IMG/VR virus record: IMGVR_UViG_3300037297_000231
Coordinates: 44 to 64,043 of that record
Source of the DNA: a virus
Lineage: Duplodnaviria; Caudoviricetes
Strand: one strand, 5' to 3'
Length of the DNA: 64,000 nucleotides
Position numbers and translations under genes: made by a program. Below the pieces are notes generated by a model. The model worked only from the letters and a program-made list of their open reading frames with translations. It had not been told where the DNA came from and did not search any database. Below, in pieces: positions 1-62,339 of the stretch (position 1 is its first letter; every line of letters starts with the position of its first letter).

Positions 1-84
1 ATTTCTTGGTATATTTTTGGACTTATTTATTTTACTATTAAAATTATTAAATTATTTAAAAAATTAAAGTTAAAGGAGAATAAA
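1..84 (+). repeat. 84-bp exact direct repeat, copy 1 (copy 2 at 62256-62339)
   Basis: 1-84 is identical to 62256-62339 (3' end of ORF 62109-62345 through the RBS AAAGGAGAATAAA); the sequences diverge immediately after. Confidence 0.95.
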
Positions 85-1871: not shown

Positions 1872-3399
1872 AGAACGGCTTAAGACAATATCCAATCTAG
1901 AACTACTTAAACATTATAAAATGTTATATTCAATAAGATACAATGAGGTTGATTCCTGTATTGATTTTATAAATCGTTTTTGCTTTACCTATGATCCTAG
2001 ACTCCCTGATAGCAAAGTAATACCCTTTGAATTATATCCAAAACAAATAGATTTTATTAAATGGTTATTTACCCGATATCAAAACCAGGAAGACGGATGC
2101 GTTGATAAATGCCGTGATGTAGGAGCTACCTGGTGTTTTATTGCATTTTCTATTTTTTTATTATTATTTAGGAATAATGTATCTATAGCTTTTTTTACAT
2201 ATAAGGCAAGTGAATGTCATACTATTGGGAAGATGGGAACTTTATTTGAAAAAGCTGTTTTTATAATAGATAATCTTCCAAATATGTATAAACAATCAGT
2301 CGAAACTAAATTAATGCTTATAACTAATTATGAAACTAAATCTGTAATCGTAGGGGCATCAGGAGATAACCCATTAAGAGGTGATAGGCAAACAATAATC
2401 TTTAAGGACGAATCGGCTTTTTATGAGCAAGCTGAATCAATAGAAGCTGCAATGTCAAAGTCTAGTGATTGTAAAATAGATATATCAACACATGCAGGAA
2501 CAGCGACATTATTTTATCAAAAAATTGTATCCGGAGAATTACCTATATTTACGTTTGATTGGTGGGAGAATCCTAGACATACTCAGGAATGGTTTGAGTC
2601 TGAACGGAAAAAGTATTATGCAAGTGGGCTTATTCATATTTTTAGAAGAGAGATAGAAAGAAATCCTTTGGCCAGTGTTGAGAATATATTGATACCTGCG
2701 GAATGGACGCATTCAGCAAAAGTTTGTAATGTGGGTATAACAGGTAAAAGGATTGCTAGCCTTGATGTCGCAGATGAAGGGACTGATACTAACGCTTTAT
2801 GTATTATGAATGGCAATACTTTATTGCATTTAGAAGAATGGTCTAGTCCAGATCCTAATGAAACGGCACGTAAGGCTTTCTATAGAGCAATAGAATTTGA
2901 TTGTGATGAATTCCGTTATGATAATATAGGCGTGGGGACCGGGATAAAAGCCGGATTAAATGTAATTTTAGATGAATTAAGGAAAGATGAACTAAATAAC
3001 AAAAAAGCTTTAAGTATAAGGATTATTGGCTGGGCTGCGTCTGGAAAAGTTATTAGGCCTGACGATTATGATTTTGATGAGAAAAGGCCAAATAAAGACT
3101 TTTTCGAAAACGCTAAGTCTCAAGCTTATTATAAAATAAGAGACGAATTTCTTCAAACATATCATTATATGAACAAAGAACAACATGATGCTACGAAATT
3201 AATAGATTTTAGTCAAATGATTGACCATCCACTATTTAATAAATTTATGAGTGAATTATCTCAGCCTTTACAAAAATTAACAGCAAGTGGAAAGATAATT
3301 ATTGATAAAAAAGCTAAAAGTAAATCTCCAAATATAGCTGAAGCTTATATGATAGGCAGGGCTGAGGTTAATCTTAATTTATCTATCTGGGATGTTTAA
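1852..3399 (+). CDS. Terminase large subunit
   Basis: PFELYPKQ adenine-binding motif, KCRDVGAT Walker A variant, FKDE Walker B, LDVADEG.D nuclease motif, C-terminal SPN.AEA. Confidence 0.92.
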   Translation: MMKITYKERLKTISNLELLKHYKMLYSIRYNEVDSCIDFINRFCFTYDPRLPDSKVIPFELYPKQIDFIKWLFTRYQNQEDGCVDKCRDVGATWCFIAFSIFLLLFRNNVSIAFFTYKASECHTIGKMGTLFEKAVFIIDNLPNMYKQSVETKLMLITNYETKSVIVGASGDNPLRGDRQTIIFKDESAFYEQAESIEAAMSKSSDCKIDISTHAGTATLFYQKIVSGELPIFTFDWWENPRHTQEWFESERKKYYASGLIHIFRREIERNPLASVENILIPAEWTHSAKVCNVGITGKRIASLDVADEGTDTNALCIMNGNTLLHLEEWSSPDPNETARKAFYRAIEFDCDEFRYDNIGVGTGIKAGLNVILDELRKDELNNKKALSIRIIGWAASGKVIRPDDYDFDEKRPNKDFFENAKSQAYYKIRDEFLQTYHYMNKEQHDATKLIDFSQMIDHPLFNKFMSELSQPLQKLTASGKIIIDKKAKSKSPNIAEAYMIGRAEVNLNLSIWDV

Positions 3400-11166: not shown

Positions 11167-12186
11167 ATGCAAATATATAAAATTACTAATTTAATTAATA
11201 ATAAAATATATATAGGTCAAGATGCTTATGATAATAAAAATTATTATGGTTCAGGAAGAATAATTAAACGTGCAATTAAGAAATATGGAAAACATAATTT
11301 TATAAAAGACATATTAAATCAATGTAATTCTAAACAAGAGATGAATGAATTAGAAATCTATTGGATCAAATATTTTAAAGATTGTGGGTATATACTTTAT
11401 AATTTAACAAAAGGCGGTGGAGGAAGTTTAGGATATAGACATTTAAATGAATCAAAACAAAAGATGAAAGGAAGAAAAGCATGGAACAAAGGTTTAACGA
11501 AAGATATAGATAATAGGGTAAAAAAAATAAGTTTATCTATGAAAGGTAAAATTTTTTCTGATAGCCATAAGAAAAAAATAAGCATGTCAAAAAAAGGTAG
11601 AAATTATGAAGAAAAATATGGAATTTATAGGGCTATAGAAATTAAAAATAAAATACGATTAAAGACAAAATTAACTTTTAATCAAAAAACAATAAAAGAA
11701 AAAAGAAGTAAAGATAAAAAAGGTAAAAGTTATGAAGAAATATATAAAATAGAAAATATAGAAAGAATGAAAAATATGGCAAGAAAAAGAATGTTAGGAG
11801 AAAATAATCCTGCTAAGAGACCTGAAGTAAGAGAAAAAATGAGTAAAATGCGTAAAGGCATACCAAATAAATATAAAGGTACAAATAAAGAAAATAATGA
11901 AATTTATAGGAGATTAAGTGATTCTAAGAAAGGTAAAAAATTTACAGAGGGACATAAAAGAAATTTAAGTATTGCTAAAAAAGGATTATATACTGAAGAT
12001 AAAAGTCATTCGGCAAAGACATTTATATTCTATTCACCTTGTGGAATAAGAAATGTTGTAAAAGGGATATATTATAAATTTTGTGAAGAAAACAATTTAT
12101 GTGGAAAAACGATAAGAGAACATTTAAATAAAAACAATCATAATTATAAAGGATGGGCTATTTATAGATATGAAAATAATAGATAA
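11167..12186 (+). CDS. Free-standing GIY-YIG homing endonuclease with NUMOD3 repeats
   Basis: IYKITNLINNKIYIGQ...YYGSG, E..WI, YNLTKGG, repeated HKKKIS.SKKG motifs. Confidence 0.88.
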   Translation: MQIYKITNLINNKIYIGQDAYDNKNYYGSGRIIKRAIKKYGKHNFIKDILNQCNSKQEMNELEIYWIKYFKDCGYILYNLTKGGGGSLGYRHLNESKQKMKGRKAWNKGLTKDIDNRVKKISLSMKGKIFSDSHKKKISMSKKGRNYEEKYGIYRAIEIKNKIRLKTKLTFNQKTIKEKRSKDKKGKSYEEIYKIENIERMKNMARKRMLGENNPAKRPEVREKMSKMRKGIPNKYKGTNKENNEIYRRLSDSKKGKKFTEGHKRNLSIAKKGLYTEDKSHSAKTFIFYSPCGIRNVVKGIYYKFCEENNLCGKTIREHLNKNNHNYKGWAIYRYENNR

Positions 12187-12877
12187 TATTTCTCTTATAA
12201 TTTTAAGTTGCAAACGATTTTCACTTTTTAAAAGGACGATAGAATCTCTTCAAAAAAACTGCCTCGACTTAGATTTAATTAGCCAAATAATCTTAGTTGA
12301 CGATAATAGCGAATTACATGATTTAATCTTAATGCAGGATTTAGCAAAAAAACTCGGTAAGCCTTTATTGTTGGTAAGCAAGCATCAAAATAAAGGACAC
12401 GCAATTTCAATGAATATTGCATGGGATCTGGTTAAGACTGAATATTGCCTATTATTAGAGGACGATTGGGAGTGCGTTAAGTCTGATAATTTCATTAAAA
12501 CTGCGTTTCAGATATTTAATAAGCATGATAATGTTGTCCAGGTCCAATACCACCGTAAAGCTGATATAACAGCAATAGGGCAAAAGACTTTAAAATTAGG
12601 CAATAAAAAATATATAAAATATGACTATAATGTCAAATCAGTTGATAGTCTAGGCAGACCAGCATTTCCAGGGTTCACTTTGAATCCTAGCTTAATCAAT
12701 GTCAAAAAGCTAAAAGAAAATAATTTGCGCTTTAGAGAGGATATATTCGGCTTTGAGTTTAATTATGCTTGTCAGGTTGCAGGAAAAGGACTTAAGATTG
12801 CTTATTTTACCGATAATTATTTTCAGCATATAGGCAAGAATAATTCGGCGTATAAGTTGAATGAAACTCAGAGGTAA
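12170..12877 (+). CDS. Glycosyltransferase family 2-like
   Basis: ILVDDNS, N.AW, LLEDDW (DxD), HIG motifs. Confidence 0.8.
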   Translation: MKIIDNISLIILSCKRFSLFKRTIESLQKNCLDLDLISQIILVDDNSELHDLILMQDLAKKLGKPLLLVSKHQNKGHAISMNIAWDLVKTEYCLLLEDDWECVKSDNFIKTAFQIFNKHDNVVQVQYHRKADITAIGQKTLKLGNKKYIKYDYNVKSVDSLGRPAFPGFTLNPSLINVKKLKENNLRFREDIFGFEFNYACQVAGKGLKIAYFTDNYFQHIGKNNSAYKLNETQR

Positions 12878-13020
12878 TATGTGTTTGCATGTTTGGAGTA
12901 AAAAGATTAACGAGATCAAATATTTTTCGAAAGATATTATAGGTATAGAAGAATCTAAGATATGTAAAAATTGTGGACGGCTTAAATATATTAAGTTTAA
13001 ATCAATACGGAGAAAAAAGA

Positions 13021-13656
13021 ATGTTCAATTTTAATCAATTATTTCCAGTTGTATATTTGATCAATCTCCCTGAACATGCTGAACGCCTTGAACATGCAAA
13101 AAAACAACTTGCTAAAATTGGGATATCCGATTATATTATATTTGAAGGCATTAAAGTAAATAACGGTCAAACATTACAAGATCGTGAGGCTGGATGTAAA
13201 TTATCACATTTGGCTATTATTGAACAATGCAAAGAGAACGGCATTGATAGAGTATGTATATTTGAAGATGATATAAATATAAAAGATACTTTTTTAGAAA
13301 AATTGGGAATGGTAAAAGATTTTATATTGAATGAAGATTGGCATTTATTTTATTTTGGTGGCAACTTAAATGTTAATTCAGGGCATCATTACGATATTTT
13401 TAACAAAGATATAATGCGTGTTTATAGATGCTATACTACACATGCTTATTGTGTTAATTCTAGCATTTATAATCAGATATTGCAGTTTAAGGAGGTTAAT
13501 ACTCAATATGATATATTATTGAGCTTTTTAATCCAGGAACAATATAAAAAGAGTTTTTGCATGAATCCTCGTCAAATAACACAGAGGACAGGCTTTTCTT
13601 ATATAATGCAAAAGAGCCTTGATTATTCTATAGTCTTAGAAGATAGAAAAATATAA
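13021..13656 (+). CDS. Glycosyltransferase family 25
   Basis: YLINL....ER, GC.LSH, IFEDD, THAY motifs; start at 13021 after GGAG. Confidence 0.85.
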   Translation: MFNFNQLFPVVYLINLPEHAERLEHAKKQLAKIGISDYIIFEGIKVNNGQTLQDREAGCKLSHLAIIEQCKENGIDRVCIFEDDINIKDTFLEKLGMVKDFILNEDWHLFYFGGNLNVNSGHHYDIFNKDIMRVYRCYTTHAYCVNSSIYNQILQFKEVNTQYDILLSFLIQEQYKKSFCMNPRQITQRTGFSYIMQKSLDYSIVLEDRKI

Positions 13657-13660
13657 TTTT

Positions 13661-13710
13661 GTCGACTTACTTTATATTAAATTATATTGTGTTAAATTAA
13701 ATTATTTTTT
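13661..13710 (+). repeat. 5-nt periodic tract A0 (NTT-NN units)
   Basis: gtc-ga ctt-ac ttt-at att-aa att-at att-gt gtt-aa att-aa att-at, then a T-run. Confidence 0.8.
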
Positions 13711-13723
13711 TAGGAGAAAAAAA

Positions 13724-14311
13724 ATGAAACAAGAGCAAAAAGAAGAAAAAATCGTGATTCCAACAATAAATATGGAATCATACATCATTACTATTGAAGG
13801 CGAATCTCCATTAATCACAGGTCGATTTTCTTCAGACTTATCAAACAATCCAAAAGATAATTCACCTGCCCAACAGATAAAAAATTCTATTCATTATTTA
13901 TCTGATGGGAGTTATGGGTATCCAGCAAGAGCAATACAAAAAGCAATCATAAATGCTTGTCGTATAAAACAGAAAGATGTAAAGACTTATAAAATGACAG
14001 AATTACGTGGTGTTTTTTCTGTTATTGCCGAAGATGAAACTGGATTATTGAAGCTAGATTGTAAAGATCATACTACTTTTGAAAGGATAGTATATAATAA
14101 AAATAATGCAATAAAAAGCCATTATGCTAAGTATGATAAATGGAAATTAACTTTTGAATTGATATTTAATCCATCCGTTAAATCATTGAAAGATTTTTTA
14201 TATTTATTGACTTTAGCAGGGCAATTTGTAGGGCTTGGAGTTTTAAGGCCTCAAGCGCAGGATTCAGGGGAATATGGAAGATTTAAAATAATTAAAGTTG
14301 AACATAAATAA
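13724..14311 (+). CDS. Stand-alone RAMP / Cas7(Csm3)-like RNA-binding protein
   Basis: N-terminal ITIEGESPL strand, YPARAIQKAI helix (equivalent of IPGSSLKGA), C-terminal Gly-rich loop GLGVLRP..SGEYGRF. Confidence 0.75.
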   Translation: MKQEQKEEKIVIPTINMESYIITIEGESPLITGRFSSDLSNNPKDNSPAQQIKNSIHYLSDGSYGYPARAIQKAIINACRIKQKDVKTYKMTELRGVFSVIAEDETGLLKLDCKDHTTFERIVYNKNNAIKSHYAKYDKWKLTFELIFNPSVKSLKDFLYLLTLAGQFVGLGVLRPQAQDSGEYGRFKIIKVEHK

Positions 14312-14321
14312 TTTGTTTTTT

Positions 14322-14381
14322 GTTCGTTTGATTTGGATTAATATGGATTACTTTTGATTGATTTACTTTAAATTAAATTTT
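14322..14381 (+). repeat. 5-nt periodic tract A1
   Basis: gtt-cg ttt-ga ttt-gg att-aa tat-gg att-ac ttt-tg att-ga ttt-ac ttt-aa att-aa att-tt. Confidence 0.8.
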
Positions 14382-14423
14382 TTATTGATATTTGAAAAAA
14401 ATGAGTTAAAATATAATATATAG

Positions 14424-14473
14424 GTTTTATTATATTACCTTTGATTAGGTTTCGTTTAATTGCATTAAATTAT
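14424..14473 (+). repeat. 5-nt periodic tract A2 (just downstream of a promoter-like sequence at 14392-14419)
   Basis: gtt-tt att-at att-ac ctt-tg att-ag gtt-tc gtt-ta att-gc att-aa att-at: 10/10 units have TT in register. Confidence 0.85.
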
Positions 14474-14538
14474 TTATAGGGGAGAATTGAAATAGGTAAT
14501 TATGGATTGTAATTATTCTTTGTATTGTATTTTTTTAT

Positions 14539-14613
14539 GTTTGATTAAGGTTAATTACGATTTAATCATTTAAATTAAATTGCCTTCGTTTTAGTTTTGT
14601 TGCATTAAATTTA
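14539..14613 (+). repeat. 5-nt periodic tract A3
   Basis: gtt-tg att-aa ggt-ta att-ac gat-tt aat-ca ttt-aa att-aa att-gc ctt-cg ttt-ta gtt-tt gtt-gc att-aa att-ta: third base is T in all 15 units. Confidence 0.8.
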
Positions 14614-14629
14614 TTTTTAAGGATTATTT

Positions 14630-15136
14630 ATGGAAAAAAAGATTATTTTTTATAGCAAGAAAAGTTTTTTGCCTAATACTTCATTACAAAAGATAGGGGA
14701 AGAAATATATAATCTGAAAGATAGAAGTATATCTAATATCTATGATACTGTTGCCAAAAATGAGAAATCAGAGCTTCATAAACATTTGACATGGGATAAT
14801 AAAATTGCGGGTAAAAACTGGCGTAAATATGAAATTAAAAAAATAGTTTCGACAATTGTATATAAAATTATAGAAATAGATAAAGACAAAAAAGAAGATA
14901 TACTTATTGAAGATCAAAGGGCTTTTGACACTATAGGAAAAGACGACAAGAAAAAAGAAGTTATATTCGTTGTAGAAGATATCAAAAAGAAAGACAAAAG
15001 AACTATATTATTTGAAAAACTTCAGGAGGAATTCGAAAGTATTCAAAATAGAATTAAAGAGTATAATAGAATCGTTGATTTTATTCTGGATTTAAATAAT
15101 AAATGGAATGATTTAAATAATAAATTAAATAAATAA
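14630..15136 (+). CDS. Uncharacterised phage protein partnered with the RAMP gene
   Basis: SELHKHLTWDNKIAGKNWR resembles the phage motif (S/P)LHxxFxWDDxxAxxxYR; embedded between periodic tracts. Confidence 0.55.
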   Translation: MEKKIIFYSKKSFLPNTSLQKIGEEIYNLKDRSISNIYDTVAKNEKSELHKHLTWDNKIAGKNWRKYEIKKIVSTIVYKIIEIDKDKKEDILIEDQRAFDTIGKDDKKKEVIFVVEDIKKKDKRTILFEKLQEEFESIQNRIKEYNRIVDFILDLNNKWNDLNNKLNK

Positions 15137-15189
15137 TCGTTTTTATTACATTAAGATCGTTTAAATTGAATTTTATTAAATTAAATTTT
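15135..15189 (+). repeat. 5-nt periodic tract A4
   Basis: aat-cg ttt-tt att-ac att-aa gat-cg ttt-aa att-ga att-tt att-aa att-aa att-tt. Confidence 0.8.
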
Positions 15190-15203
15190 TTTGGAGTTGT
15201 ATA

Positions 15204-16019
15204 ATGAATAAAGCAAATATAATAATTTTTAGTTTTAATAGGCCTTGTCAATTAGAATTGTTATTAAGATCCATGAAAATGCATTGGAATGATTTTGATA
15301 ACCAGGAGATTAAGGTTATTTATACTTATTCTAATGATAGTTTTGAAGCTGGATATAATAAGCTTAAAAATGAATGTAAGGGTAATATTGAGTTTGTCAA
15401 ACAAGTGACATTTAGACAGAATGTTATTAATTGCATAGATACAAGTAAAGAACTTGTTATATTTGGGACTGATGATGATGTTTTTATTCGTGATTTTGAT
15501 TTGCAATGTAAAGAGGTTGATTTCTTTAAGCAACGCCCTGAGATAATTACTTTGTCATTAAGGCTCGGTAAGAATATTTCTTATTGTTATACACAGAATA
15601 GATTTATATCCCGGCCGCTTTTAATCAAGGGTGCGGATTATAATTTGTGGAATTGGACTGAGGGAGAAGAAGGGGACTGGACTTATCCATTCAGTTTAGA
15701 TTTTAATTTATATGAGACGGACTTTATTTTGCCTTATATTAAGAAGTTTGAGTTTAGATCACCGAATACACTTGAGGGCTTTTTTGCTCGTATAATGCCT
15801 TATGCTAGATATTTAATGATGGGTTTTGATGAACCTAAAATTGTAAATTTGCCTATAAATCGGGTGCAAATGGATAATAAGAATAGGCACGGAAGAATAC
15901 CTGCGGAGTTTTTAAATAATAAGTATTTAGATGGCTATGTTATTGATTATAGTAAACTTGAAATATTCAACGGCAACTCTTGCCATATTGAGAGTAAAGT
16001 TGAGTTTATTGAGGGATAA
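15204..16019 (+). CDS. Glycosyltransferase-like (GT-A fold)
   Basis: IIFSFNRP.QL..LL.S, TDDD motif, YP.SLD, PNTLE. Confidence 0.7.
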   Translation: MNKANIIIFSFNRPCQLELLLRSMKMHWNDFDNQEIKVIYTYSNDSFEAGYNKLKNECKGNIEFVKQVTFRQNVINCIDTSKELVIFGTDDDVFIRDFDLQCKEVDFFKQRPEIITLSLRLGKNISYCYTQNRFISRPLLIKGADYNLWNWTEGEEGDWTYPFSLDFNLYETDFILPYIKKFEFRSPNTLEGFFARIMPYARYLMMGFDEPKIVNLPINRVQMDNKNRHGRIPAEFLNNKYLDGYVIDYSKLEIFNGNSCHIESKVEFIEG

Positions 16020-16356
16020 ACCATTGTTAATGGTTAAAAATATATTTTTTTTAGGAGATTAAATATGTATGAGTTAGAAAAAACTGATGAGAAAGAACGA
16101 ATAGAATATGAAATAGGGCGTGAGGTGCGTTTAATTGGTGAGCATTTAGAAAAATTGGATCATGCTATTAATTCTTTAAGAAAACGATGTGCTGATATTA
16201 TTGAAGAATATCCAACTGAAAAATTAGACTCCAAATTATCAGAAGGATGTGGAACTGTTTTAGGTGACAAATTAAAGAATTTTAACGGATCGTTAGAGTC
16301 TTGTATTAATAATTTGAATAACTTAAAAGAAAATATAAGGCTATAGGCAATTTAAG

Positions 16357-16962
16357 ATGTGCAATAAAGATACTAAAAAATGCGATATACAGAAAGGATT
16401 CCCATTAAATGAATGCTGCAAAAACAATCTTATGAAACTATTATCTGTTATAGATATCATGTTTAAAAAGCATAATATATTATATTGGATTGATTATGGT
16501 ACGTTGCTTGGGAGTGTAAGGCAAGGGCAAATAATACCCTATGACGATGATTGCGATATTGGTATACTAAGGCAGGATTTAGATAAACTATTATGCTTAA
16601 GCGATGAATTTCGTTTGATGGGATTCCATCTAGTAAGTTGGTTCTATCCTAATTTTTTAAGATTAGATTATAGCAGAATAAATGAACTTCATGTGGATAT
16701 CTTTGCATGGGATGTTCAAATAATGCCATTTAAAGAGATCTGGCAAGAGGATAGATGGCAATATAATACAGCTTGTTTATACCGGAAACAATATATTCAG
16801 GGCAAAGATGAAAATAAAGGAAAGCATTTTCCAGTTGAATATTTATTCCCTCTGAATAAATCTAAAATAGGCAATTTGTCTTTACCGTGTCCGCACAAAC
16901 CAGATCGATTTTGTGGGTTTAGATATGGGCATGATTGGAGAATTGAGAAAAAGGAAAATTAA
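16357..16962 (+). CDS. licD: LicD family phosphotransferase
   Basis: YWIDYGTLLGSVR...IIPYDDDCDIG, VDIF, YG.DW motifs. Confidence 0.85.
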   Translation: MCNKDTKKCDIQKGFPLNECCKNNLMKLLSVIDIMFKKHNILYWIDYGTLLGSVRQGQIIPYDDDCDIGILRQDLDKLLCLSDEFRLMGFHLVSWFYPNFLRLDYSRINELHVDIFAWDVQIMPFKEIWQEDRWQYNTACLYRKQYIQGKDENKGKHFPVEYLFPLNKSKIGNLSLPCPHKPDRFCGFRYGHDWRIEKKEN

Positions 16963-16964
16963 TA

Positions 16965-17357
16965 ATGAATAAGGAAAAAATTAATATAGGGTTTACAGTT
17001 GGCATTTGGGATTGTTTTCATGAAGCACATATTATTTTTTTAAAGAAATGCCATAAATATTGTGATTATTTAATAGTTGGTATCATGACAGATTATTGGT
17101 GTAAAGTCCAAAAAGGTAAAACTAGACCTGAAGATGGGTTACAAACCAGACATGCTAATTTACAAAATAGTAACCTTTGTGATAAGATCGTCATACTTGA
17201 TACTTTAGATATGACAGAATATTTGAAAATTGCTGATATATGGATTAAGGGAGTTGGGCAAAATAAAATGAAGCCAGAATTTTTTAAAAATACTGTTTTC
17301 ATACCTAGAACACCTGATATATCAACGACAAAAATTTTAGAGGAGAAAAAATGGTAA
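16965..17357 (+). CDS. Cytidylyltransferase (TagD/RfaE-like HxGH family)
   Basis: G.WD.FHEAH, LIVG, PRTPDISTT motifs. Confidence 0.8.
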   Translation: MNKEKINIGFTVGIWDCFHEAHIIFLKKCHKYCDYLIVGIMTDYWCKVQKGKTRPEDGLQTRHANLQNSNLCDKIVILDTLDMTEYLKIADIWIKGVGQNKMKPEFFKNTVFIPRTPDISTTKILEEKKW

Positions 17358-17724
17358 AATTTTTAAAAAAAATCATTAAAAAATTATTTTTTAAATATTT
17401 TGATATAAAAATAAATAACATTGAGGTTTATACTTTTTGTAAAGATGAAATTTTATCTAATAATTTTAATGAAAAATTTAATTCAAAATTCTGCACTATA
17501 TATAATATAGCATATTTTGTATTGGTTCAATATTGGTTTGATTCAATAACTATTGTTGTCAATAGGGATACATCTACTATTTTTTTAATACTAGAAGATA
17601 TAAATTTTGAATTAGAAAAAGAAATTATTGGATATTTAAAAGATAAATTACCGGCTAATGTATTAATTAAAATATCTGAAAATATAGTAGAAAATATTAT
17701 TGGCTATGAAATAAAAGAAAAATA

Positions 17725-18372
17725 ATGGATAATAGACAAAAATATATTAATATAAACCCAAAATATTTTGAATTATTATCATTAAGCTATTTTGATAAAT
17801 ATATGCATGATGCTTTAATATATAGGGATTTCATGGGATGTGAAGGCTTTAAAGAGGATTATTTGGCTTTACATGGAATAATTAGGGAAGTAAATCCTCA
17901 GTCATTTTGTGAGATTGGAACTCACTTAGGAGAGGGGACTAGAATTATTTGTAATGCTATGCAAGGTAAACAAGTATATTCACTTGATTTACCGGTCAGA
18001 TATGATGAAACTAAAGATGTCTATTTAAATTGGAATAGTGAAAAACCAGAAGGAAAAGTAGGTGAACGATGCGAATTTACTTATACTCAATTATTTGGAA
18101 ACTCAAAATATTTTGACTTTTCACCATATTACCCAATTGATGCCTGGTATATTGACGGTAGGCATAATTATGAGTTTTGTTATGCGGATTCTATAAACGC
18201 CTTAAAATCTAACCCAAAAGTCATTATATGGCATGATACATTGATGGATGGTGTTCAAAAAGCTATTTATCAGATAATAGAAGAAAACAAGGCTTTATAT
18301 GAGGCTTATTATATAAGAGGTACGAGAGTATCATTTATTTTAAGAAAGGAGAAAAATAATGCCAATAAATAG
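17725..18372 (+). CDS. Class I SAM-dependent methyltransferase (Methyltransf_24-like)
   Basis: EIGT..G.G, YIDG.H.Y...D, IIWHD motifs. Confidence 0.8.
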   Translation: MDNRQKYININPKYFELLSLSYFDKYMHDALIYRDFMGCEGFKEDYLALHGIIREVNPQSFCEIGTHLGEGTRIICNAMQGKQVYSLDLPVRYDETKDVYLNWNSEKPEGKVGERCEFTYTQLFGNSKYFDFSPYYPIDAWYIDGRHNYEFCYADSINALKSNPKVIIWHDTLMDGVQKAIYQIIEENKALYEAYYIRGTRVSFILRKEKNNANK

Positions 18373-18898
18373 TGAAATATTAAGTAAGTATAAAAATGAT
18401 GTGTTTGTGGAGACTGGAACACATATTGGGCGTGGTATAGATGCAGCTTTGAAAGCTGGTTTCAAGGAAATCCACTCTGTTGAATTATCAGCAAAACATT
18501 ATATTTTTTGTATGAAAAAGTACAAAGATAATAAAAATGTATTTCTTTATCATGGAGATTCAGGAAAATTGCTTAGTGTTATTTTAGGAAAAGTAAAACG
18601 TAGAAATAAAACTGTGTGGTTGGATTCACATTTTTCAGGAGGCGATACAGCTTGCGGAGAGAAATATTCACCGCTTATGGAAGAACTAAGTGTAATTAAA
18701 TATTTCTATGGTAAAAGGGATGTAATTTTAATTGATGATATTCGGGATTATAAGGTTAAATCAGAGCATTATGATTTTGACCTGGAAGATATTAAGGATA
18801 AACTTTTAGAGATTAATGCTGATTTTACTTTTAGCTATGAGGACTCATATCAGGGTGATACTTTTATGTTTCCAAAAGATATTTTAGTGGCTAAATAG
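18359..18898 (+). CDS. SAM-dependent methyltransferase-like protein
   Basis: FVETGT..G.G, SVEL, GDS, WLDSH, ILIDD.R motifs. Confidence 0.75.
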   Translation: MPINSEILSKYKNDVFVETGTHIGRGIDAALKAGFKEIHSVELSAKHYIFCMKKYKDNKNVFLYHGDSGKLLSVILGKVKRRNKTVWLDSHFSGGDTACGEKYSPLMEELSVIKYFYGKRDVILIDDIRDYKVKSEHYDFDLEDIKDKLLEINADFTFSYEDSYQGDTFMFPKDILVAK

Positions 18899-19286
18899 GA
18901 GTAAGCATGATTGATATTAAGAAAAAACCAAATAAAATATATATTGAAATATATAATTATAAAACCAAAAAAAAGATAGTCACATTAGCTTTTTCGAAAG
19001 AATCATTAAAATTTGCTAATCATATACATAAATATTTTAAACATATAATAAAAACTTCAATAGAATCAGGATGGATAAATAGATCAGATTGGACAAACGC
19101 AGAAATAAAATTAAGATTTCCTGGAATAAATAAAGTTGAAATTATATTGCCTTCGGTAATACATAATGTAAATATCAATATTAAACCCTCAAAATTGAGC
19201 ATACAAGCAAATAAAATATTTAGAAGAATATTTAAAAATAATATTAATTATGTAAAAGATATAAAAGTTATTCCAAAATATAAAAA

Positions 19287-20003
19287 ATGATACCAATACT
19301 TTATGCTATAAACTTTAAAATAGATTCTCTTCCTAATGCAATGAGACGCTTCAATTGCTCATTAAATTCTATTTTATTGCAAGCTGATAAGATATTTATT
19401 TTAAATGCATCGAAAGAAGATATTGATATTATTGATCATGATAAGATTGTTTATATTCATAAGCCTTATAATAAGTACTTTAATAAATCACTTTTAATGA
19501 ACTATATGGTGAAGCATTTTTTAAAGGATTATGACTATTTTTGTTTTTCAGATATAGACCTCGTTTATCCAAAGGATTATATTAAACGAATTACTTCACA
19601 TATACAGAATAAACCAGTTCGGGTGATTCCTCGCAATATAGCAATGCCTATGGAATATTACTCAGGTAATTATGATGATTTGTTAATCATTGCTGATAAG
19701 TTTAAACAGCATCCAACAGGTGAAGCTCATGGAATAGGTTTATTTCATACTCAGTCTGTTATTGATATAAAAGGATGGAATGAATATTATTTGGGGTATG
19801 CTGCGGAAGATAAAAGTATAAATTTGAGATTGGAAAAATATGGCAATAAGATTATATTTGATCGTTCAATAAATCATATTCATTTGTGGCATTATCCAAT
19901 AAATCGGGAATATCATGCACAAAATAAGTTTTTATGGAATCAAGAGCAAGAATTTATCAGGAAAGGGAAACTTATATTTAATGATAAGTGGGGTGAATAT
20001 TAA
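19287..20003 (+). CDS. Glycosyltransferase (GT2 / galactosyltransferase C-terminal-like)
   Basis: FNKS..MN, DID, GWNE.Y.GY..ED, HLWH motifs. Confidence 0.8.
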   Translation: MIPILYAINFKIDSLPNAMRRFNCSLNSILLQADKIFILNASKEDIDIIDHDKIVYIHKPYNKYFNKSLLMNYMVKHFLKDYDYFCFSDIDLVYPKDYIKRITSHIQNKPVRVIPRNIAMPMEYYSGNYDDLLIIADKFKQHPTGEAHGIGLFHTQSVIDIKGWNEYYLGYAAEDKSINLRLEKYGNKIIFDRSINHIHLWHYPINREYHAQNKFLWNQEQEFIRKGKLIFNDKWGEY

Positions 20004-20806
20004 TGGGCAAATTTTATATATGGAATGATATTTTTGATGGAAATAACACATTAAGACTTGATTATCCATTGAATGAAGATTCCATTGTTTTTGATGTAGG
20101 GGCGTATAAAGGTGAATTTATTGAAAAAATATATAGTAAATATAAATGTAATATTTATGCTTTTGAGCCTATTCCAGATTTTTTTAACTTATTATGTGAT
20201 AAGTTTGCAGAGAATAATAAAATCCATTTATATAATTTTGGATTACATAATAAAGAAGAGTTGACACCTATACAATTAAAAGATGATTCTTCATCAATCT
20301 TTCGAGTAGACTTAGAGAGTGCTTCCTATGTGGAAATGAAAAAATTAAGTGGATTCTTTAAAGAAAATGAGATTACAAAAATAGATCTGCTTAAACTTAA
20401 TGTGGAAGGGGCTGAATATTATATTTTAGACGATATAATTAAAAATAACTTACAGTTAGTAATTGATAATATCCAGGTTCAATTCCATCATATTGATAAA
20501 AAGTTTGATAAATATAAGGATAAATTCTGTAATGTTTTAAGTGAAACACATCAACTTACTTATAAGATAGATTGGATTTGGGAGAATTGGCAAATTAAGA
20601 CAATCCCATTTTACCATGATTTTGAGTTACTCAATAAACTGATAGATGATTATTTATGTTTAGAAAAAAAGCATGAAATACTTTCTCAGGATTTCAGAAA
20701 TTTTAGAGAAAAGCAGCATAATTTAAAACATGCAGTTGATACTTATATTTCAACTGAAGGCACAAATATATCAAATCTTAAGCACCAAATGGAGTTAAAT
20801 AAATGA
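20003..20806 (+). CDS. FkbM family methyltransferase
   Basis: FDVGAY.G, AFEP, IDLLKLNVEGAEY, QVQFH motifs. Confidence 0.88.
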   Translation: MGKFYIWNDIFDGNNTLRLDYPLNEDSIVFDVGAYKGEFIEKIYSKYKCNIYAFEPIPDFFNLLCDKFAENNKIHLYNFGLHNKEELTPIQLKDDSSSIFRVDLESASYVEMKKLSGFFKENEITKIDLLKLNVEGAEYYILDDIIKNNLQLVIDNIQVQFHHIDKKFDKYKDKFCNVLSETHQLTYKIDWIWENWQIKTIPFYHDFELLNKLIDDYLCLEKKHEILSQDFRNFREKQHNLKHAVDTYISTEGTNISNLKHQMELNK

Positions 20807-21492
20807 AATTATCAGATTTTGGATTTAATGTTTATTCTCAATTCGGGGAAGATGGCATAATCGCCAAGATATTTCAAATTATAAAAATAAGGCATAATGT
20901 ATGTATTGATCTTGGTTCATGGGATGGCGTTCATTATTCTAATGTTTGTAATTTATATCGTAATGGATGGAAAGCCATTCTGATAGAAGGCAATAAAAAA
21001 AAGTTTGACGAATTGGAACGTAATATTAGATGGTATGATTGTATTGCTATTAATGAATGGGTCAAGAATGCGGATATTATCAACAGATACACTAAAATTG
21101 ACCTTCTAAGCGTTGATATAGACGGAAATGATTATTTTATACTAAAGGACTTAAAATCACGCCCCAGAGTGCTTATTTGTGAATATAACCCTACAATTCC
21201 ACCCTTCATGAACATGATAGCCAAGAAAAATAGTAATTTTGGTTGCTCTGCTTTGGCATTAAAAACCATGGCTAAATCTAAAGGGTATACTTTAATCGCA
21301 ATGACTGAGAGTAATTGCATATTCGTATTAGATGAATTAGTTCATAAGTTTAATGATTTTGATATAGAATATGAGTCTATTTTTTGCTATAAGAATCTTT
21401 CTTATGTGATTACAGATTATTCAGGGAATTATATGTTTTCTAGAAGGCCAGTCTATGGATTTGAAAAACCTTTGAAAGTTAGATTTATTTAA
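20803..21492 (+). CDS. FkbM-like methyltransferase
   Basis: YSQFGEDGII, G.WDG..SN, DLLSVDIDGNDY, PRV..CEYN motifs. Confidence 0.8.
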   Translation: MKLSDFGFNVYSQFGEDGIIAKIFQIIKIRHNVCIDLGSWDGVHYSNVCNLYRNGWKAILIEGNKKKFDELERNIRWYDCIAINEWVKNADIINRYTKIDLLSVDIDGNDYFILKDLKSRPRVLICEYNPTIPPFMNMIAKKNSNFGCSALALKTMAKSKGYTLIAMTESNCIFVLDELVHKFNDFDIEYESIFCYKNLSYVITDYSGNYMFSRRPVYGFEKPLKVRFI

Positions 21493-40460: not shown

Positions 40461-40742
40461 GGAGAATAAACATGGTTCAATTTTTAATTTTTTCAGGGAT
40501 TTTTTTAATTTGTTTTATAGGTGGTTGTTTTGTAGGTTATAAATTTAAAGATAAAATAAAAGGATTTATATCAAAATTTAAATAATGAATATCCCTCTTT
40601 TATGAGGGTAAAGATATGAAAACCTTGAAAATTATCAGGGATTTATTTTTTACAACTATTATTCTTTTTGCTTGTATGGCAATATTATTCTTCAGGTTGA
40701 ACTTAACTGAAGAACAAACTGATGATATTATAAGGAAATATT

Positions 40743-44578: not shown

Positions 44579-45544
44579 ATGATAAAATGGTTTTTGCATC
44601 CGAAAACAAAAGAAAAATTATTAGTTAAAGATTGTCTTGATAAAGGCTTACTTTCTGATTTTTTTCCATTAGCTTATCTGCATATATGCGCTGAAGAAAG
44701 GGAATGGAAAGGAAAGGCGTCTACCACACAGTTATTAGATGGCTCAAGAATGAGTTATTTAAAATTATTGACTCCTTATGCAATCGATCCAAATGATTCA
44801 GCTTTTAGAGTTCTTGGTACTAAGAGTCATGCAAAATTAGAAAAATTAACTCCCAAGAAATCATTTACAGAATTGAGTATTCCTGAAACCGATATATCAG
44901 GTATTGCAGATCTGTTGGAACAACAATCTAACGGCGAATGGTGGTTGACAGATTATAAAACATCGGGGGCATATGTGGTAAGAAAGGCTTTGGGACTTGT
45001 TAAAAAGAAAAGACCGGCTTTTGATGAAAACGGCAATCCGATTTTATATGTTAAAGGCGGTAAATGGGGAAAAGTCGGTGATCAAAAGTTAGAAGACTAC
45101 TGGGAAGTAGACGAGAATCAGAAAGACATTAAGAATTATAAATTACAACTTAATAAATATCGAAAAGAGATAGAGGAATATTTCGGTATAATTATTTCAG
45201 GACTAAAGATATTCTTTATCGTTAGGGACGGTGGCATCAAAGCTTCTCTTGATAACGGCATTAGCCAAAAGACTTATTTTATTGACATCTCTTTTATGGA
45301 TAACGAGGAAGTTGACAAATATTTTAATACGAAAAACGACTTATTATTAAAAGCATTAGATAATTATAATAATGCTGAAGAGGAAATTAACCCTGAGCTT
45401 GAATATAAAGAAAAAGCTTTATTTAAATTCATGCCGGATCCATGCAACGCTGAAGAATCATGGCAAGGCAGACGATGTAATGGTTATTGTCCAGTATCAG
45501 AAGTTTGTCAGAAAACCGGGTGTCCATATTTGAAGGGGGATTAA
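44579..45544 (+). CDS. PD-(D/E)XK Cas4-like exonuclease
   Basis: G...H..LE, SG.ADL, DYKT, QLN.Y, C-terminal Cys cluster (RC.GYCPV..VC). Confidence 0.8.
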   Translation: MIKWFLHPKTKEKLLVKDCLDKGLLSDFFPLAYLHICAEEREWKGKASTTQLLDGSRMSYLKLLTPYAIDPNDSAFRVLGTKSHAKLEKLTPKKSFTELSIPETDISGIADLLEQQSNGEWWLTDYKTSGAYVVRKALGLVKKKRPAFDENGNPILYVKGGKWGKVGDQKLEDYWEVDENQKDIKNYKLQLNKYRKEIEEYFGIIISGLKIFFIVRDGGIKASLDNGISQKTYFIDISFMDNEEVDKYFNTKNDLLLKALDNYNNAEEEINPELEYKEKALFKFMPDPCNAEESWQGRRCNGYCPVSEVCQKTGCPYLKGD

Positions 45545-48542: not shown

Positions 48543-48544
48543 AT

Positions 48545-48617
48545 GCTCGAGTAATCCAACGGCAGAGATAGTGGACTTAAAATCCATCAAGTGTGAGTTC
48601 GAATCTCACCTCGAGTA
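48545..48617 (+). tRNA. tRNA-Leu (TAA), short variable loop
   Basis: GCTCGAG/CTCGAGT acceptor, GTGGA-CTTAAAA-TCCAT, GTGAG-TTCGAAT-CTCAC. Confidence 0.88.
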
Positions 48618-48619
48618 AT

Positions 48620-48693
48620 GGCTCTCTGGGCTAACTGGCAAAGCCGTGAGTTTTAGAAATTCATGAATCTCAGTTCGAATCTGAGGGGGGCTA
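48620..48693 (+). tRNA. tRNA-Leu (TAG), short variable loop
   Basis: GGCTCTC/GGGGGCT acceptor, TGAGT-TTTAGAA-ATTCA, CTCAG-TTCGAAT-CTGAG. Confidence 0.85.
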
Positions 48694-48710
48694 ATTTATT
48701 TTAAGGAGAA

Positions 48711-49275: not shown

Positions 49276-50145
49276 GTGGAAGTAAATAAACAAACTGAAT
49301 TTCAGAAAACAAATAATGAAACATTCAAAATTGAGACTTATGAGCCAATTAAACAAGAAATAGATCAATTTGATTTTTTAGAGAATCAATTAGTTATATT
49401 AAGTAAGGAAACAATAGAAAAGTTTTTACAATATAGCAATGCTTCAGATTTGATAGGTCTTTATACTTTTTATTATTATACTGCAAAATGGCAAAAAACA
49501 AATCAACCTAAATGTACGGATACTTATTGTGTGAAAGGCTTAAAATGGAGTAAAACAAAATTTTATAAAGCAAAAAAAATTTTAAAAGATATAGGTCTTA
49601 TACAAAATATTAAACGGATAAATAAAGAAAATAAAGTTGTTGGTTGGTATGTAAGAATTAATTATATATGGTCAAAAAATAAAACAGATATTATCCAGAG
49701 TCCCAAAATCAAGACAGTGGAAAATCAAGACAGTGGAAAATTAGACACAAATGCTTTAAGTGTTAATACTATAAATGCTTTAAGTGTTAATAAAAAAACA
49801 ATTAAAAATAATTATAATGATTATAAAATTATTTATAATAATGTTTTATTAAAAATTTATACACAAGAACAAATAAATAACTTGATATATAAATCAAATA
49901 AACAACTTAAACAGCTATCTTTATTGTTAAATAAATTTAAATCTATTGAAGAATGTAAATTATTTTTTTATATTGCATTTAAAAATAAATGGTTAAAAGA
50001 TAATGGTTTTTTACCTGCTTTAATAAATGGGAGTTATGATAACATAAAAGCACAACAAATTTTAAATAAAAAAAATATCAATAGTTATGAAAAAGTTATT
50101 ATCCCTGACGAAGTTAAAAAATCATTCCAGGAGTCATGGCTTTGA
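49276..50145 (+). CDS. Replication initiator protein (lambda O-like organisation)
   Basis: N-terminal HTH-like region, central iteron repeats, directly upstream of DnaB. Confidence 0.7.
   Translation: MEVNKQTEFQKTNNETFKIETYEPIKQEIDQFDFLENQLVILSKETIEKFLQYSNASDLIGLYTFYYYTAKWQKTNQPKCTDTYCVKGLKWSKTKFYKAKKILKDIGLIQNIKRINKENKVVGWYVRINYIWSKNKTDIIQSPKIKTVENQDSGKLDTNALSVNTINALSVNKKTIKNNYNDYKIIYNNVLLKIYTQEQINNLIYKSNKQLKQLSLLLNKFKSIEECKLFFYIAFKNKWLKDNGFLPALINGSYDNIKAQQILNKKNINSYEKVIIPDEVKKSFQESWL
49705..49792 (+). repeat. Iteron-like repeats / putative replication origin
   Basis: AAAATCAAGACAGTGG x2 plus a partial third; AAATGCTTTAAGTGTTAATA x2 (24-nt period); AT-rich tract follows. Confidence 0.7.
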
Positions 50146-62255: not shown

Positions 62256-62339
62256 ATTTCTTGGTATATTTTTGGACTTATTTATTTTACTATTAAAATT
62301 ATTAAATTATTTAAAAAATTAAAGTTAAAGGAGAATAAA
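62256..62339 (+). repeat. 84-bp exact direct repeat, copy 2
   Basis: Identical to 1-84. Confidence 0.95.

What the first reader, a model, noticed from the sequence alone, without database searches (positions are those of the whole stretch)
14322..14613. Decoded dinucleotide strings give testable gapped targets, possibly in codon register
Seen: NN strings are A1 CG-GA-GG-AA-GG-AC-TG-GA-AC-AA-AA; A2 TT-AT-AC-TG-AG-TC-TA-GC-AA-AT; A3 TG-AA-TA-AC-TT-CA-AA-AA-GC-CG-TA-TT-GC-AA; A0 GA-AC-AT-AA-AT-GT-AA-AA-AT; A4 CG-TT-AC-AA-CG-AA-GA-TT-AA-AA. The NN positions are visibly richer in G/C than the triplets, as expected if they carry the information. Inference: if one target base is skipped between dinucleotides, recognition would ignore codon wobble positions. 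A1 would then read R-[DE]-G-[KN]-G-T-[WC]-[DE]-T-[KN]-[KN], making escape by synonymous mutation hard. No self-target was spotted by eye, so targets may be competing phages or the host.
Basis: inference. Interest (0 to 1): 0.7.

Follow-up and report, generated by a model that had tools for sequence, protein, structure and literature searches.

The report
VIPR guide-RNA arrays with UU scaffold
The five-base repeats flank a phage gene for a Vipr protein, so they are most likely guide RNAs of the recently described VIPR system, built on a U-U scaffold instead of the usual G-G-pyrimidine one.

Summary
All five dinucleotide strings are read correctly. Period-5 NNNTT arrays occur almost only at 13657-15192: 6 of the 7 such runs in the window, against 0.6 per shuffled window.

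They flank ORF 13724-14311. Its family profile matches the solved SUSP1 Vipr protein (PDB 36pp, E 1.5e-17). It folds as a Cas7/Csm3-like RAMP. The next gene (14630-15136) belongs to the same PHROG family as the gene that follows canonical GGY/NN arrays in two Gordonia-phage Vipr loci.

So this is a VIPR locus (bioRxiv 10.64898/2026.04.26.720920).

This locus differs in its scaffold. Only T-T is constant, and positions 1-3 match genome composition. There are no GGYNN runs anywhere in the window. The four residues that read the two guanines in SUSP1 Vipr are replaced.

Several things are not shown. No RNA run was found. No target was found in the window or by exact one-skip scans of three collections. 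The guide register is ambiguous. Strain variants are too close to test NN hypervariability.

Verdict: a new variant of a known kind.

The parts
13664..13708 (+). Array A0: 9 NNNTT units directly upstream of the vipr ribosome-binding site. Two looser units lie at 13654-13663.
   Evidence: Lag-5 TT signal in 13657-13723: 9 of 1000 shuffles reach it.
13724..14311 (+). vipr: a 195-aa RAMP protein of the Vipr family (phrog_4652). The residues that read the guanines in SUSP1 Vipr are replaced here.
   Evidence: Family profile against PDB 36pp 'SUSP1 Vipr protein': E 1.5e-17, profile 18-196 to chain 3-188. AF2 model pLDDT 94, pTM 0.87. Foldseek top hits are Csm3/Cas7 subunits. 797 relatives at E<=0.001. 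PHROG hit. Residue census.
14315..14379 (+). Array A1: 13 NNNTT units, one degenerate (AATAT). It ends in AAATT AAATT.
   Evidence: Strain variants change two NN bases, at 14331 and 14346.
14380..14421 (+). 42-nt spacer after A1; a possible 3' tail of the first RNA.
   Evidence: Read from the sequence. The length is near the ~40-nt tail described for SUSP1 vrRNAs (paper, methods passage). No significant fold: z -0.70 for the whole 318 nt.
14422..14471 (+). Array A2: 10 perfect NNNTT units.
14472..14516 (+). 45-nt spacer after A2, so A2 and A3 are in the same 5-nt phase; a possible tail.
   Evidence: Coordinates (14517 - 14422 = 95 = 19 x 5).
14517..14616 (+). Array A3: 20 units, 3 of them degenerate. 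It may be two RNAs, 14517-14581 (ending AAATT AAATT) and 14582-14616. It runs up to the ribosome-binding site of the next gene.
14630..15136 (+). vap-like accessory gene, 168 aa (phrog_15946).
   Evidence: PHROG hit E 1.2e-6. Pairwise BLASTP E 2e-9 and 5e-9 to the genes that follow the GGY/NN arrays in Gordonia phages Pipp and Ecliptus; those genes are in phrog_15946 at E 9e-64 and 4e-49.
15138..15187 (+). Array A4: 10 units, one degenerate (AAGAT). It ends in AAATT AAATT, then a T-run and the ribosome-binding site of ORF 15204-16019.
   Evidence: On its own it is not significant by the lag-5 test: 198 of 1000 shuffles reach it.

Best explanation
Region 13657-15192 is a phage VIPR (Viral Interference Programmable Repeat) cassette. 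It consists of a Vipr RAMP protein, a vap-like accessory protein and five or six arrays of pentanucleotide repeats, all on the sense strand.

By homology with the SUSP1 system, the arrays would be transcribed as RNAs of about 50-110 nt. One Vipr protomer would bind each 5-nt unit and bury the constant bases, forming a helical filament. The exposed variable bases would pair with double-stranded DNA of a competing mobile element through a gapped code, silencing it.

The scaffold here is non-canonical. The unit is NNNUU: only U-U is constant, there is no G, and the protein has lost the four residues that read the two guanines in SUSP1.

Shown here: the arrays, their restriction to this locus, the Vipr and accessory-gene homology, the lack of any GGY array, and the residue replacements.

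Inferred: transcription and strand, binding by this Vipr, guide function, the one-base skip, and which two of the three variable bases form the guide.
For: 1. Arrays are restricted to the locus. 6 of the 7 period-5 TT runs in 64 kb flank this gene pair. The periodicity beats 2000 of 2000 dinucleotide shuffles of the region.

2. The adjacent ORF is a Vipr-family RAMP. Profile E 1.5e-17 to PDB 36pp SUSP1 Vipr. AF2 pLDDT 94. Foldseek finds Csm3/Cas7 subunits, with 128 matches at E<=0.001.

3. Locus-level homology. vipr (phrog_4652), then arrays, then a phrog_15946 gene is the same order as in Gordonia phages Ecliptus and Pipp. Their arrays are canonical GGYNN, lie on the vipr strand and start just after vipr.

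4. Array sizes are 9, 13, 10, 20 and 10 units. The published range is 9-16, up to 30 (papers). One array upstream and several downstream matches the layout described for SUSP1.

5. There is no alternative cognate RNA. GGYNN runs of 3 or more units: 0 on either strand of the window.

6. The protein change matches the RNA change. Using the alignments: SUSP1 H17, R138, D177 and W178, which read G1 and G2 (paper), are G33, Y134, V173 and L174 here. In 152 family members the R138 position is R in 135, and the D177 position is D or E in 102. R179, which forms the pyrimidine pocket, is R in 151 of 152 and is kept here. The substitutions recur in the relatives at 68%, 68% and 43% identity.

7. T-T scaffolds occur beside other Viprs. 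In a scan of IMG/VR for ten TT at period 5, 2 of the 118 loci returned carry a Vipr homologue, and in both the arrays (core GTT/NN) flank it on its strand.

8. No self-target, as reported for VIPR (paper passage).

9. The gene is under purifying selection. 13 of the 15 listed substitutions in one strain contig over vipr fall at third codon positions (phase counted by me).
Against: - No RNA evidence exists for either strand.
- No target was found. There were 0 exact one-skip hits for A1 in viral, metagenome and genome collections, for A2, or for A1 in the second register. A GTT-type array from L023 used as a class control also found nothing. Exact matching is a weak test.
- There is no conserved or significantly folded 3' tail (z -0.70). 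Rfam found nothing.
- The single protein sequence does not reach the Vipr structure by phmmer; only the 50-sequence profile does.
- A0, A3 and A4 abut ribosome-binding sites. They could therefore be leader elements rather than free guides.
- This clade lacks about 12 residues of the helical bundle that holds the skipped base in SUSP1 (alignment; role from the paper). The one-base skip may not carry over.
- A2 and A3 are identical in the strain variants that cover them.
- The residue-to-scaffold covariation rests on five loci only. L033 keeps R138 although its second core base is U.
Confidence: 0.75

Rival explanations
1. The arrays are Vipr-binding sites in the mRNA leaders of vipr, the vap-like gene and ORF 15204. 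They act in cis to control translation or processing, and the variable bases carry no target information.
For: A0, A3 and A4 end 13-20 nt before start codons, just ahead of AGGAG, AAGGA and GGAG. In L023 the GTT/NN arrays also run up to the ribosome-binding sites of the next genes. No target was found.
Against: A1 and A2 have no downstream gene of 50 aa or more. In the characterised systems the same architecture gives trans-acting guides (papers). Position in a leader does not exclude processing into guides.
Confidence: 0.12
2. The arrays are decayed or non-functional remnants of former vrRNAs, or DNA-level features of AT-rich intergenic DNA (promoter or T-tract phasing) unrelated to Vipr.
For: The region is 51% T. 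Promoter-like hexamers are present but no more than expected: 11 against 15.5 +/- 3.2. Four TAnnTTTG motifs lie in 318 bp. The fold is not significant.
Against: T is kept at 57 of 62 and 62 of 62 units while the other three positions vary freely. 27 of the 30 intergenic regions of at least 40 bp lie outside this cassette, and only one of them holds a weak TT run, at 40490. The arrays are tied to an intact vipr under purifying selection. T-tracts every 5 bp do not add up to curvature (established knowledge). Decay would not keep TT.
Confidence: 0.08
3. Chance low-complexity sequence.
For: The genome is AT-rich (GC 0.25-0.35).
Against: 0 of 2000 dinucleotide-preserving shuffles reach the lag-5 or lag-10 signal. 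Shuffled windows give 0.6 runs against 7 observed.
Confidence: 0.01

Closest known systems
Type II VIPR of Escherichia phage SUSP1 (bioRxiv 10.64898/2026.04.26.720920 and 10.64898/2026.04.26.720927; PDB 36pp)
   Same: A small Vipr RAMP protein of about 200 aa with RRM core, G-loop and thumb. Pentanucleotide repeat arrays lie in the intergenic DNA upstream and downstream of vipr. An accessory gene is present. The system is phage-borne. No self-target.
   Different: The constant part is UU, not GGY. The G-reading residues H17, R138, D177 and W178 are G, Y, V and L here. About 12 residues of the helical bundle are missing. There is no conserved pseudoknot tail. Arrays abut ribosome-binding sites. 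RNA, binding and targets are untested here.
Vipr loci of Gordonia phages Ecliptus (OP820472) and Pipp (MN234179); annotated only as hypothetical proteins
   Same: Same gene families and order: phrog_4652 vipr, then arrays on the same strand, then a phrog_15946 gene.
   Different: Their arrays are canonical GGYNN and their Viprs keep H, R, E and W at the G-reading positions. Protein identity to ours is 24-26%.
Published non-canonical vrRNA repeats: NNNGG, YNNNG, NNNNG (10.64898/2026.04.26.720920, methods section 20); GAC/NN, CAC/NN, WGT/NN, TGH/NN (10.64898/2026.10.21.760802, passages and section 4.22)
   Same: Period 5, about 10 units, beside a Vipr-like fold. One or more scaffold positions are degenerate or changed.
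   Different: Every core named in the text I could read keeps at least one G or C. Here the scaffold is U-U alone. The full lists are in figures I could not see (Fig. S17 of the first paper; Fig. S10A of the second).
IMG/VR loci L023 and L033 (found here)
   Same: Vipr homologue flanked on its own strand by arrays whose last two unit positions are TT.
   Different: Their third position is a fixed G (core GTT/NN, two variable bases). The proteins are only 26-27% identical to ours and to each other.
Class 1 CRISPR backbone subunits (Cas7/Csm3)
   Same: Same RAMP fold. Foldseek top hits include 6xn3_F at E 8.6e-7. Filament on a guide RNA with periodic base flipping (papers).
   Different: No CRISPR array, no other cas genes, and a 5-nt rather than 6-nt period. 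PADLOC found no defence-family match.

Membership tests
VIPR system | Vipr protein: a minimal RAMP with RRM core, glycine-rich loop and thumb | tested here: met
   Profile E 1.5e-17 to PDB 36pp SUSP1 Vipr over nearly full length. AF2 pLDDT 94. Foldseek gives Csm3/Cas7. G166, G170, G172, G182, G185 and R175 are conserved.
VIPR system | Tandem pentanucleotide repeats (9-16, up to 30 units) in the intergenic DNA flanking vipr, on its strand | tested here: met
   Arrays of 9, 13, 10, 20 and 10 units at 13664-15187. The same strand and position are seen in the Gordonia controls.
VIPR system | Constant GGY motif, or a published G-containing variant (NNNGG, YNNNG, NNNNG) | tested here: not met
   0 GGYNN runs of 3 or more units and 0 NNNNG runs of 8 units in the window. 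The one NNNGG x4 run is far away, at 44698. The constant bases are T-T.
VIPR system | G-reading residues of SUSP1 Vipr (H17, R138, D177, W178) and the pyrimidine-pocket Arg (R179) | tested here: not met
   G33, Y134, V173 and L174 here; R175 is kept (alignments; roles from the paper). This fits a changed scaffold rather than arguing against Vipr homology.
VIPR system | Conserved, structured 3' tail of about 40 nt after the repeats | tested here: inconclusive
   Spacers of 42 and 45 nt follow A1 and A2. There is no significant fold (z -0.70), no Rfam hit, and no relatives to test for covariation.
VIPR system | Accessory (vap) gene next to vipr | tested here: met
   ORF 14630-15136 is in phrog_15946, as is the gene after the arrays in two canonical Vipr loci. 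Whether this family is one of the named vap1-6 could not be checked because the figures were not visible.
VIPR system | vrRNAs are expressed and co-purify with Vipr | not testable with these tools
   This needs RNA sequencing or a pull-down.
VIPR system | Natural targets in competing mobile elements under the one-base-skip rule | tested here: inconclusive
   0 exact hits for A1, A2 and A1 in the second register.
VIPR system | No self-targeting | tested here: met
   0 of 56 array x register x gap tests exceed all 50 shuffled-order controls on the whole window.
TRAP-type ring-protein RNA sites (triplets spaced by 2-3 nt); considered early, from recall | A TRAP-like ring protein and (G/U)AG triplets | tested here: not met
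   No such protein is present: the neighbour is a RAMP. The constant bases are UU, not GAG or UAG.

The most novel reading that the evidence does not exclude
This is a natural, orthogonal VIPR lineage. Its scaffold has shrunk to two uridines and its skip-base pocket (the helical bundle) is truncated. If so, three bases per unit may be exposed and the decoding rule may differ from the published two-bases-plus-one-skip rule. One example would be three guide bases reading three contiguous target bases.
Probability: 0.2. Interest if true: 0.8.

Novelty: new variant of a known kind. Interest (0 to 1): 0.55.

Why it matters
VIPR was described only in 2026, and its callers look for GGY or at least G-anchored repeats. 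A locus with an intact Vipr, a conserved accessory gene and arrays anchored by U-U alone has three consequences.

1. The scaffold-reading pocket can be rebuilt without guanine.
2. G-based callers would miss VIPR in AT-rich phages, so its spread is probably underestimated.
3. Nature may offer orthogonal Vipr-RNA pairs that could be used side by side as programmable DNA binders.

The three variable bases per unit and the shortened bundle also give a concrete case in which the decoding rule itself can be tested for change.

Tried and rejected
**Early ideas dropped**
- TRAP-like ring-protein sites (from recall). Dropped once the neighbour proved to be a RAMP.
- Bacteroidota-type promoters. TAnnTTTG occurs 71 times on the + strand against about 46 expected, 4 of them in the region. 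Dropped because the genes here have clear AGGAG-type ribosome-binding sites.
- Sigma-70 promoters and terminators: 11 sites against 15.5 expected, and 0 terminators.
- Rfam: 0 matches.
- RNA fold of the 318 nt: z -0.70.

**Relatives sought without success**
- blastn against phages: none.
- Single protein in viral contigs: none.
- The 4-sequence alignment found none in viral, metagenome or genome collections.
- The MuF-like head protein found none in viral contigs.
- tblastn with P0060 and P0005 returned only actinophage loci and one cyanophage.

**RNA and strain data**
- No RNA holder listed.
- Laying contigs of four DNA runs gave only strain-level variants. I considered arguing that the arrays are constrained, but the contigs may come from different strains, so I dropped it.

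**Target scans**
- All exact scans returned 0.
- The self-target scans covered only the first 62,315 bases. I had wrongly taken an 83-bp repeat for a terminal redundancy (corrected). One search repeated them on the whole window with the same result.

**Accessory gene**
- Pfam, NCBIfam and PADLOC found nothing useful.
- The Atlas gave only viral hypothetical proteins.
- The single-sequence AF2 model was poor (pLDDT 63), so I did not search with it.

**Not available or not used**
- Earlier findings were not open.

Full report
**1. Observation**

The intergenic DNA at 14312-14629 and the two neighbouring 67-bp intergenic regions are built of 5-nt units ending in TT.

Seven period-5 TT runs of at least 7 units lie on the + strand of the 64-kb window. 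Six of them fall at 13657-15192. Thirty block-shuffled windows gave a mean of 0.6 and at most 3. Within 14312-14629 the TT autocorrelation at lags 5 and 10 is 41, against about 25.5 +/- 4.1 in dinucleotide-preserving shuffles, and 0 of 2000 shuffles reach it. A0 is supported on its own (9 of 1000 shuffles reach it). A4 is not (198 of 1000).

Over 62 units, position 5 is T in 62 and position 4 is T in 57. Positions 1, 2 and 3 have the genome's composition (KL 0.02, 0.04 and 0.06). The unit is therefore NNNTT. The 'triplet' has only two constant bases, and the higher G/C of NN simply reflects that.

**2. What lies around it**

All long ORFs are on the + strand. The arrays bracket two genes: A0, ORF 13724-14311, A1-A2-A3, ORF 14630-15136, A4. 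This cassette sits inside a run of glycosyltransferase-like genes.

*The first ORF.* It has no Pfam family, falls in phrog_4652, and has 797 relatives at E<=0.001 in the representative library. A profile of 50 of them matches one solved structure, PDB 36pp 'SUSP1 Vipr protein'. The match has E 1.5e-17 and runs over profile positions 18-196 and chain residues 3-188. The single sequence alone does not reach it. The AF2 model is confident (pLDDT 94, pTM 0.87). Its best Foldseek matches are Csm3/Cas7 backbone subunits of type III and VII CRISPR complexes, with 128 matches at E<=0.001. That library stops at April 2026 and listed no Vipr entry.

*The second ORF.* It is in phrog_15946 (E 1.2e-6).

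**3. The known system**

A literature search on the PDB name led to the VIPR papers.

- 10.64898/2026.04.26.720920. I read the Results, the Discussion, methods sections 18, 20 and 26, and passages including supplementary figure legends.
  - Vipr is a minimal, mostly phage-borne RAMP.
  - vrRNAs consist of 9-16 YNNGG units followed by a ~40-nt tail.
  - The GGY bases are scaffold and the NN bases are guide.
  - The target is read with one skipped base, usually the codon wobble position.
  - Natural targets are satellites and rival prophages. No self-targets are seen.
  - Alternative repeats NNNGG, YNNNG and NNNNG exist.
- 10.64898/2026.04.26.720927. I read Results part 1 and the Discussion.
  - One protomer binds per unit.
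  - G1 is read by H17 and D177.
  - G2 is read by R138 and W178.
  - Y3 sits in a pocket with R179.
  - The skipped target base sits between the thumb and the helical bundle.
- 10.64898/2026.10.21.760802. I read passages and section 4.22. It reports 21 of 99 period-5 clusters with other cores, naming GAC, CAC, WGT and TGH.
- 10.64898/2026.10.15.759431. I read the abstract and methods section 17. It gives the target-scoring scheme with shuffled-guide nulls, which my scans follow.

**4. Is this locus a VIPR?**

*Positive controls.* The only phage-collection hits to our protein are five records of four Gordonia phages. In Ecliptus and Pipp my array detector finds canonical GGYNN arrays. They start immediately after vipr and lie on its strand. 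The next gene in both is phrog_15946, with pairwise E 2e-9 and 5e-9 to our ORF 14630-15136. The gene order vipr, arrays, accessory gene is therefore conserved between canonical loci and this one.

*No canonical arrays here.* The window holds no GGYNN run of even three units on either strand. If this Vipr has a cognate RNA nearby, it is the NNNTT arrays.

*Sizes and layout.* Array sizes (9-20 units) fit the published range. So does the layout of one array upstream and several downstream. The 42- and 45-nt spacers after A1 and A2 are close to the published tail length. They are neither similar to each other nor significantly folded.

**5. Protein and RNA change together**

I counted along the HMMER alignment and the MAFFT alignments.

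| SUSP1 residue | Role (paper) | Here | Among 152 family members |
|---|---|---|---|
| H17 | reads G1 | G33 | H 75, N 54 |
| R138 | reads G2 | Y134 | R 135 |
| D177 | reads G1 | V173 | D or E 102 |
| W178 | reads G2 | L174 | W 82 |
| R179 | pyrimidine pocket | R175 | R 151 |

- The closest relatives (68%, 68% and 43% identity) share the changes.
- The Gordonia Viprs, which have GGY arrays, keep H, R, E and W.
Most hits are simple repeats.
- Two of these loci, L023 and L033, carry a Vipr homologue. In both, arrays with core GTT/NN flank it on its strand.
- L033 keeps H and E, the G1 readers, and its first core base is G. It has L at the W178 position, and its second core base is U. It also keeps R138, so the correspondence is imperfect.
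- The three T-T-type Viprs are only 26-27% identical to one another.

This rests on five loci and is suggestive, not proof. This clade also lacks about 12 residues of the bundle helix.

**6. Register**

With three variable positions there are two ways to map the unit onto G1-G2-Y3-N-N:

- R1: xUU is the core and unit positions 1-2 are the guide. It is analogous to the published YNNNG type and to the GTT/NN loci.
- R2: UU plus the next base is the core and positions 2-3 are the guide. This is analogous to NNNGG.

The sequence cannot decide between them. I favour R1 weakly, because the pyrimidine-pocket Arg is kept and because of the GTT/NN loci.

**7. Targets**

*Own genome.* For seven array definitions, both registers and gaps 0-3, the best match never exceeded all 50 shuffled-order controls (0 of 56 tests). 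Earlier partial runs were.

*Public collections.* Only exact patterns can be scanned.

| Pattern | Collection | Hits |
|---|---|---|
| A1, 11 units, one skip | viral | 0 |
| A1, 11 units, one skip | metagenome | 0 |
| A1, 11 units, one skip | genome | 0 |
| A2, 10 units | viral | 0 |
| A1 in register R2 | viral | 0 |
| Array of L023 (class control) | viral | 0 |

The papers accept matches at 80% or more, so these blanks are weak.

**8. Variation**

No relatives beyond strain level could be fetched. Contigs of four DNA runs, 96-100% alike, show three substitutions in 14312-14629:

- 14317, at unit position 3;
- 14331 and 14346, both at position 2 of A1 units.

None is in TT, and A2 and A3 are unchanged where covered. 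In one contig over vipr, 13 of the 15 listed substitutions are at third codon positions.

**9. Verdict**

This is a VIPR locus whose repeat scaffold is U-U rather than GGY, with a matching rebuild of the guanine pockets. That the arrays are the cognate Vipr-bound RNAs is well supported by context. That they guide gapped DNA recognition is inferred by homology.

The searches, and the texts I read, name no G-free core. The full lists are in figures I could not see. I rate it a new variant of a known kind.

Noticed in passing
window 1-83 and 62256-62338: An 83-bp stretch including a ribosome-binding site is repeated exactly ahead of two different genes. Identity falls to background after about 90 bp, so it is not a terminal redundancy.
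   Followed up: partly
window 48544-48694: Two adjacent tRNA-Leu genes, anticodons TAA and TAG.
   Followed up: no
window 12170-21492: A long run of glycosyltransferase- and methyltransferase-like genes (GT2 at 12170-12877, GT25 at 12973-13656). The VIPR cassette sits inside it.
   Followed up: no
window 11167-12186: GIY-YIG homing-endonuclease-like ORF (phrog_314, E 6e-34).
   Followed up: no
window 49705-49741: A perfect 16-nt tandem repeat, 2.3 copies.
   Followed up: no
window 14325-14369 (run X3, record 13): A 114-nt contig at higher depth (28 against 4-6) matches A1 with 7 differences and has unlike flanks. Another element in that sample seems to carry a similar array.
   Followed up: no
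L004 2605-2874 (Gordonia phage Pipp gene 43): An annotated hypothetical CDS lies over the GGYNN arrays downstream of the Vipr homologue. It is probably not a gene.
   Followed up: no
L023 956-3198 and L033 (reverse strand) 2001-3247: Two IMG/VR contigs with Vipr homologues flanked by arrays of core GTT/NN. L033 arrays end in a shared GGAGTTGGAGAAAGTTT element.
   Followed up: partly
window 14502-14573: A 23-codon ORF with a weak ribosome-binding site overlaps the first part of array A3 (read).
   Followed up: no
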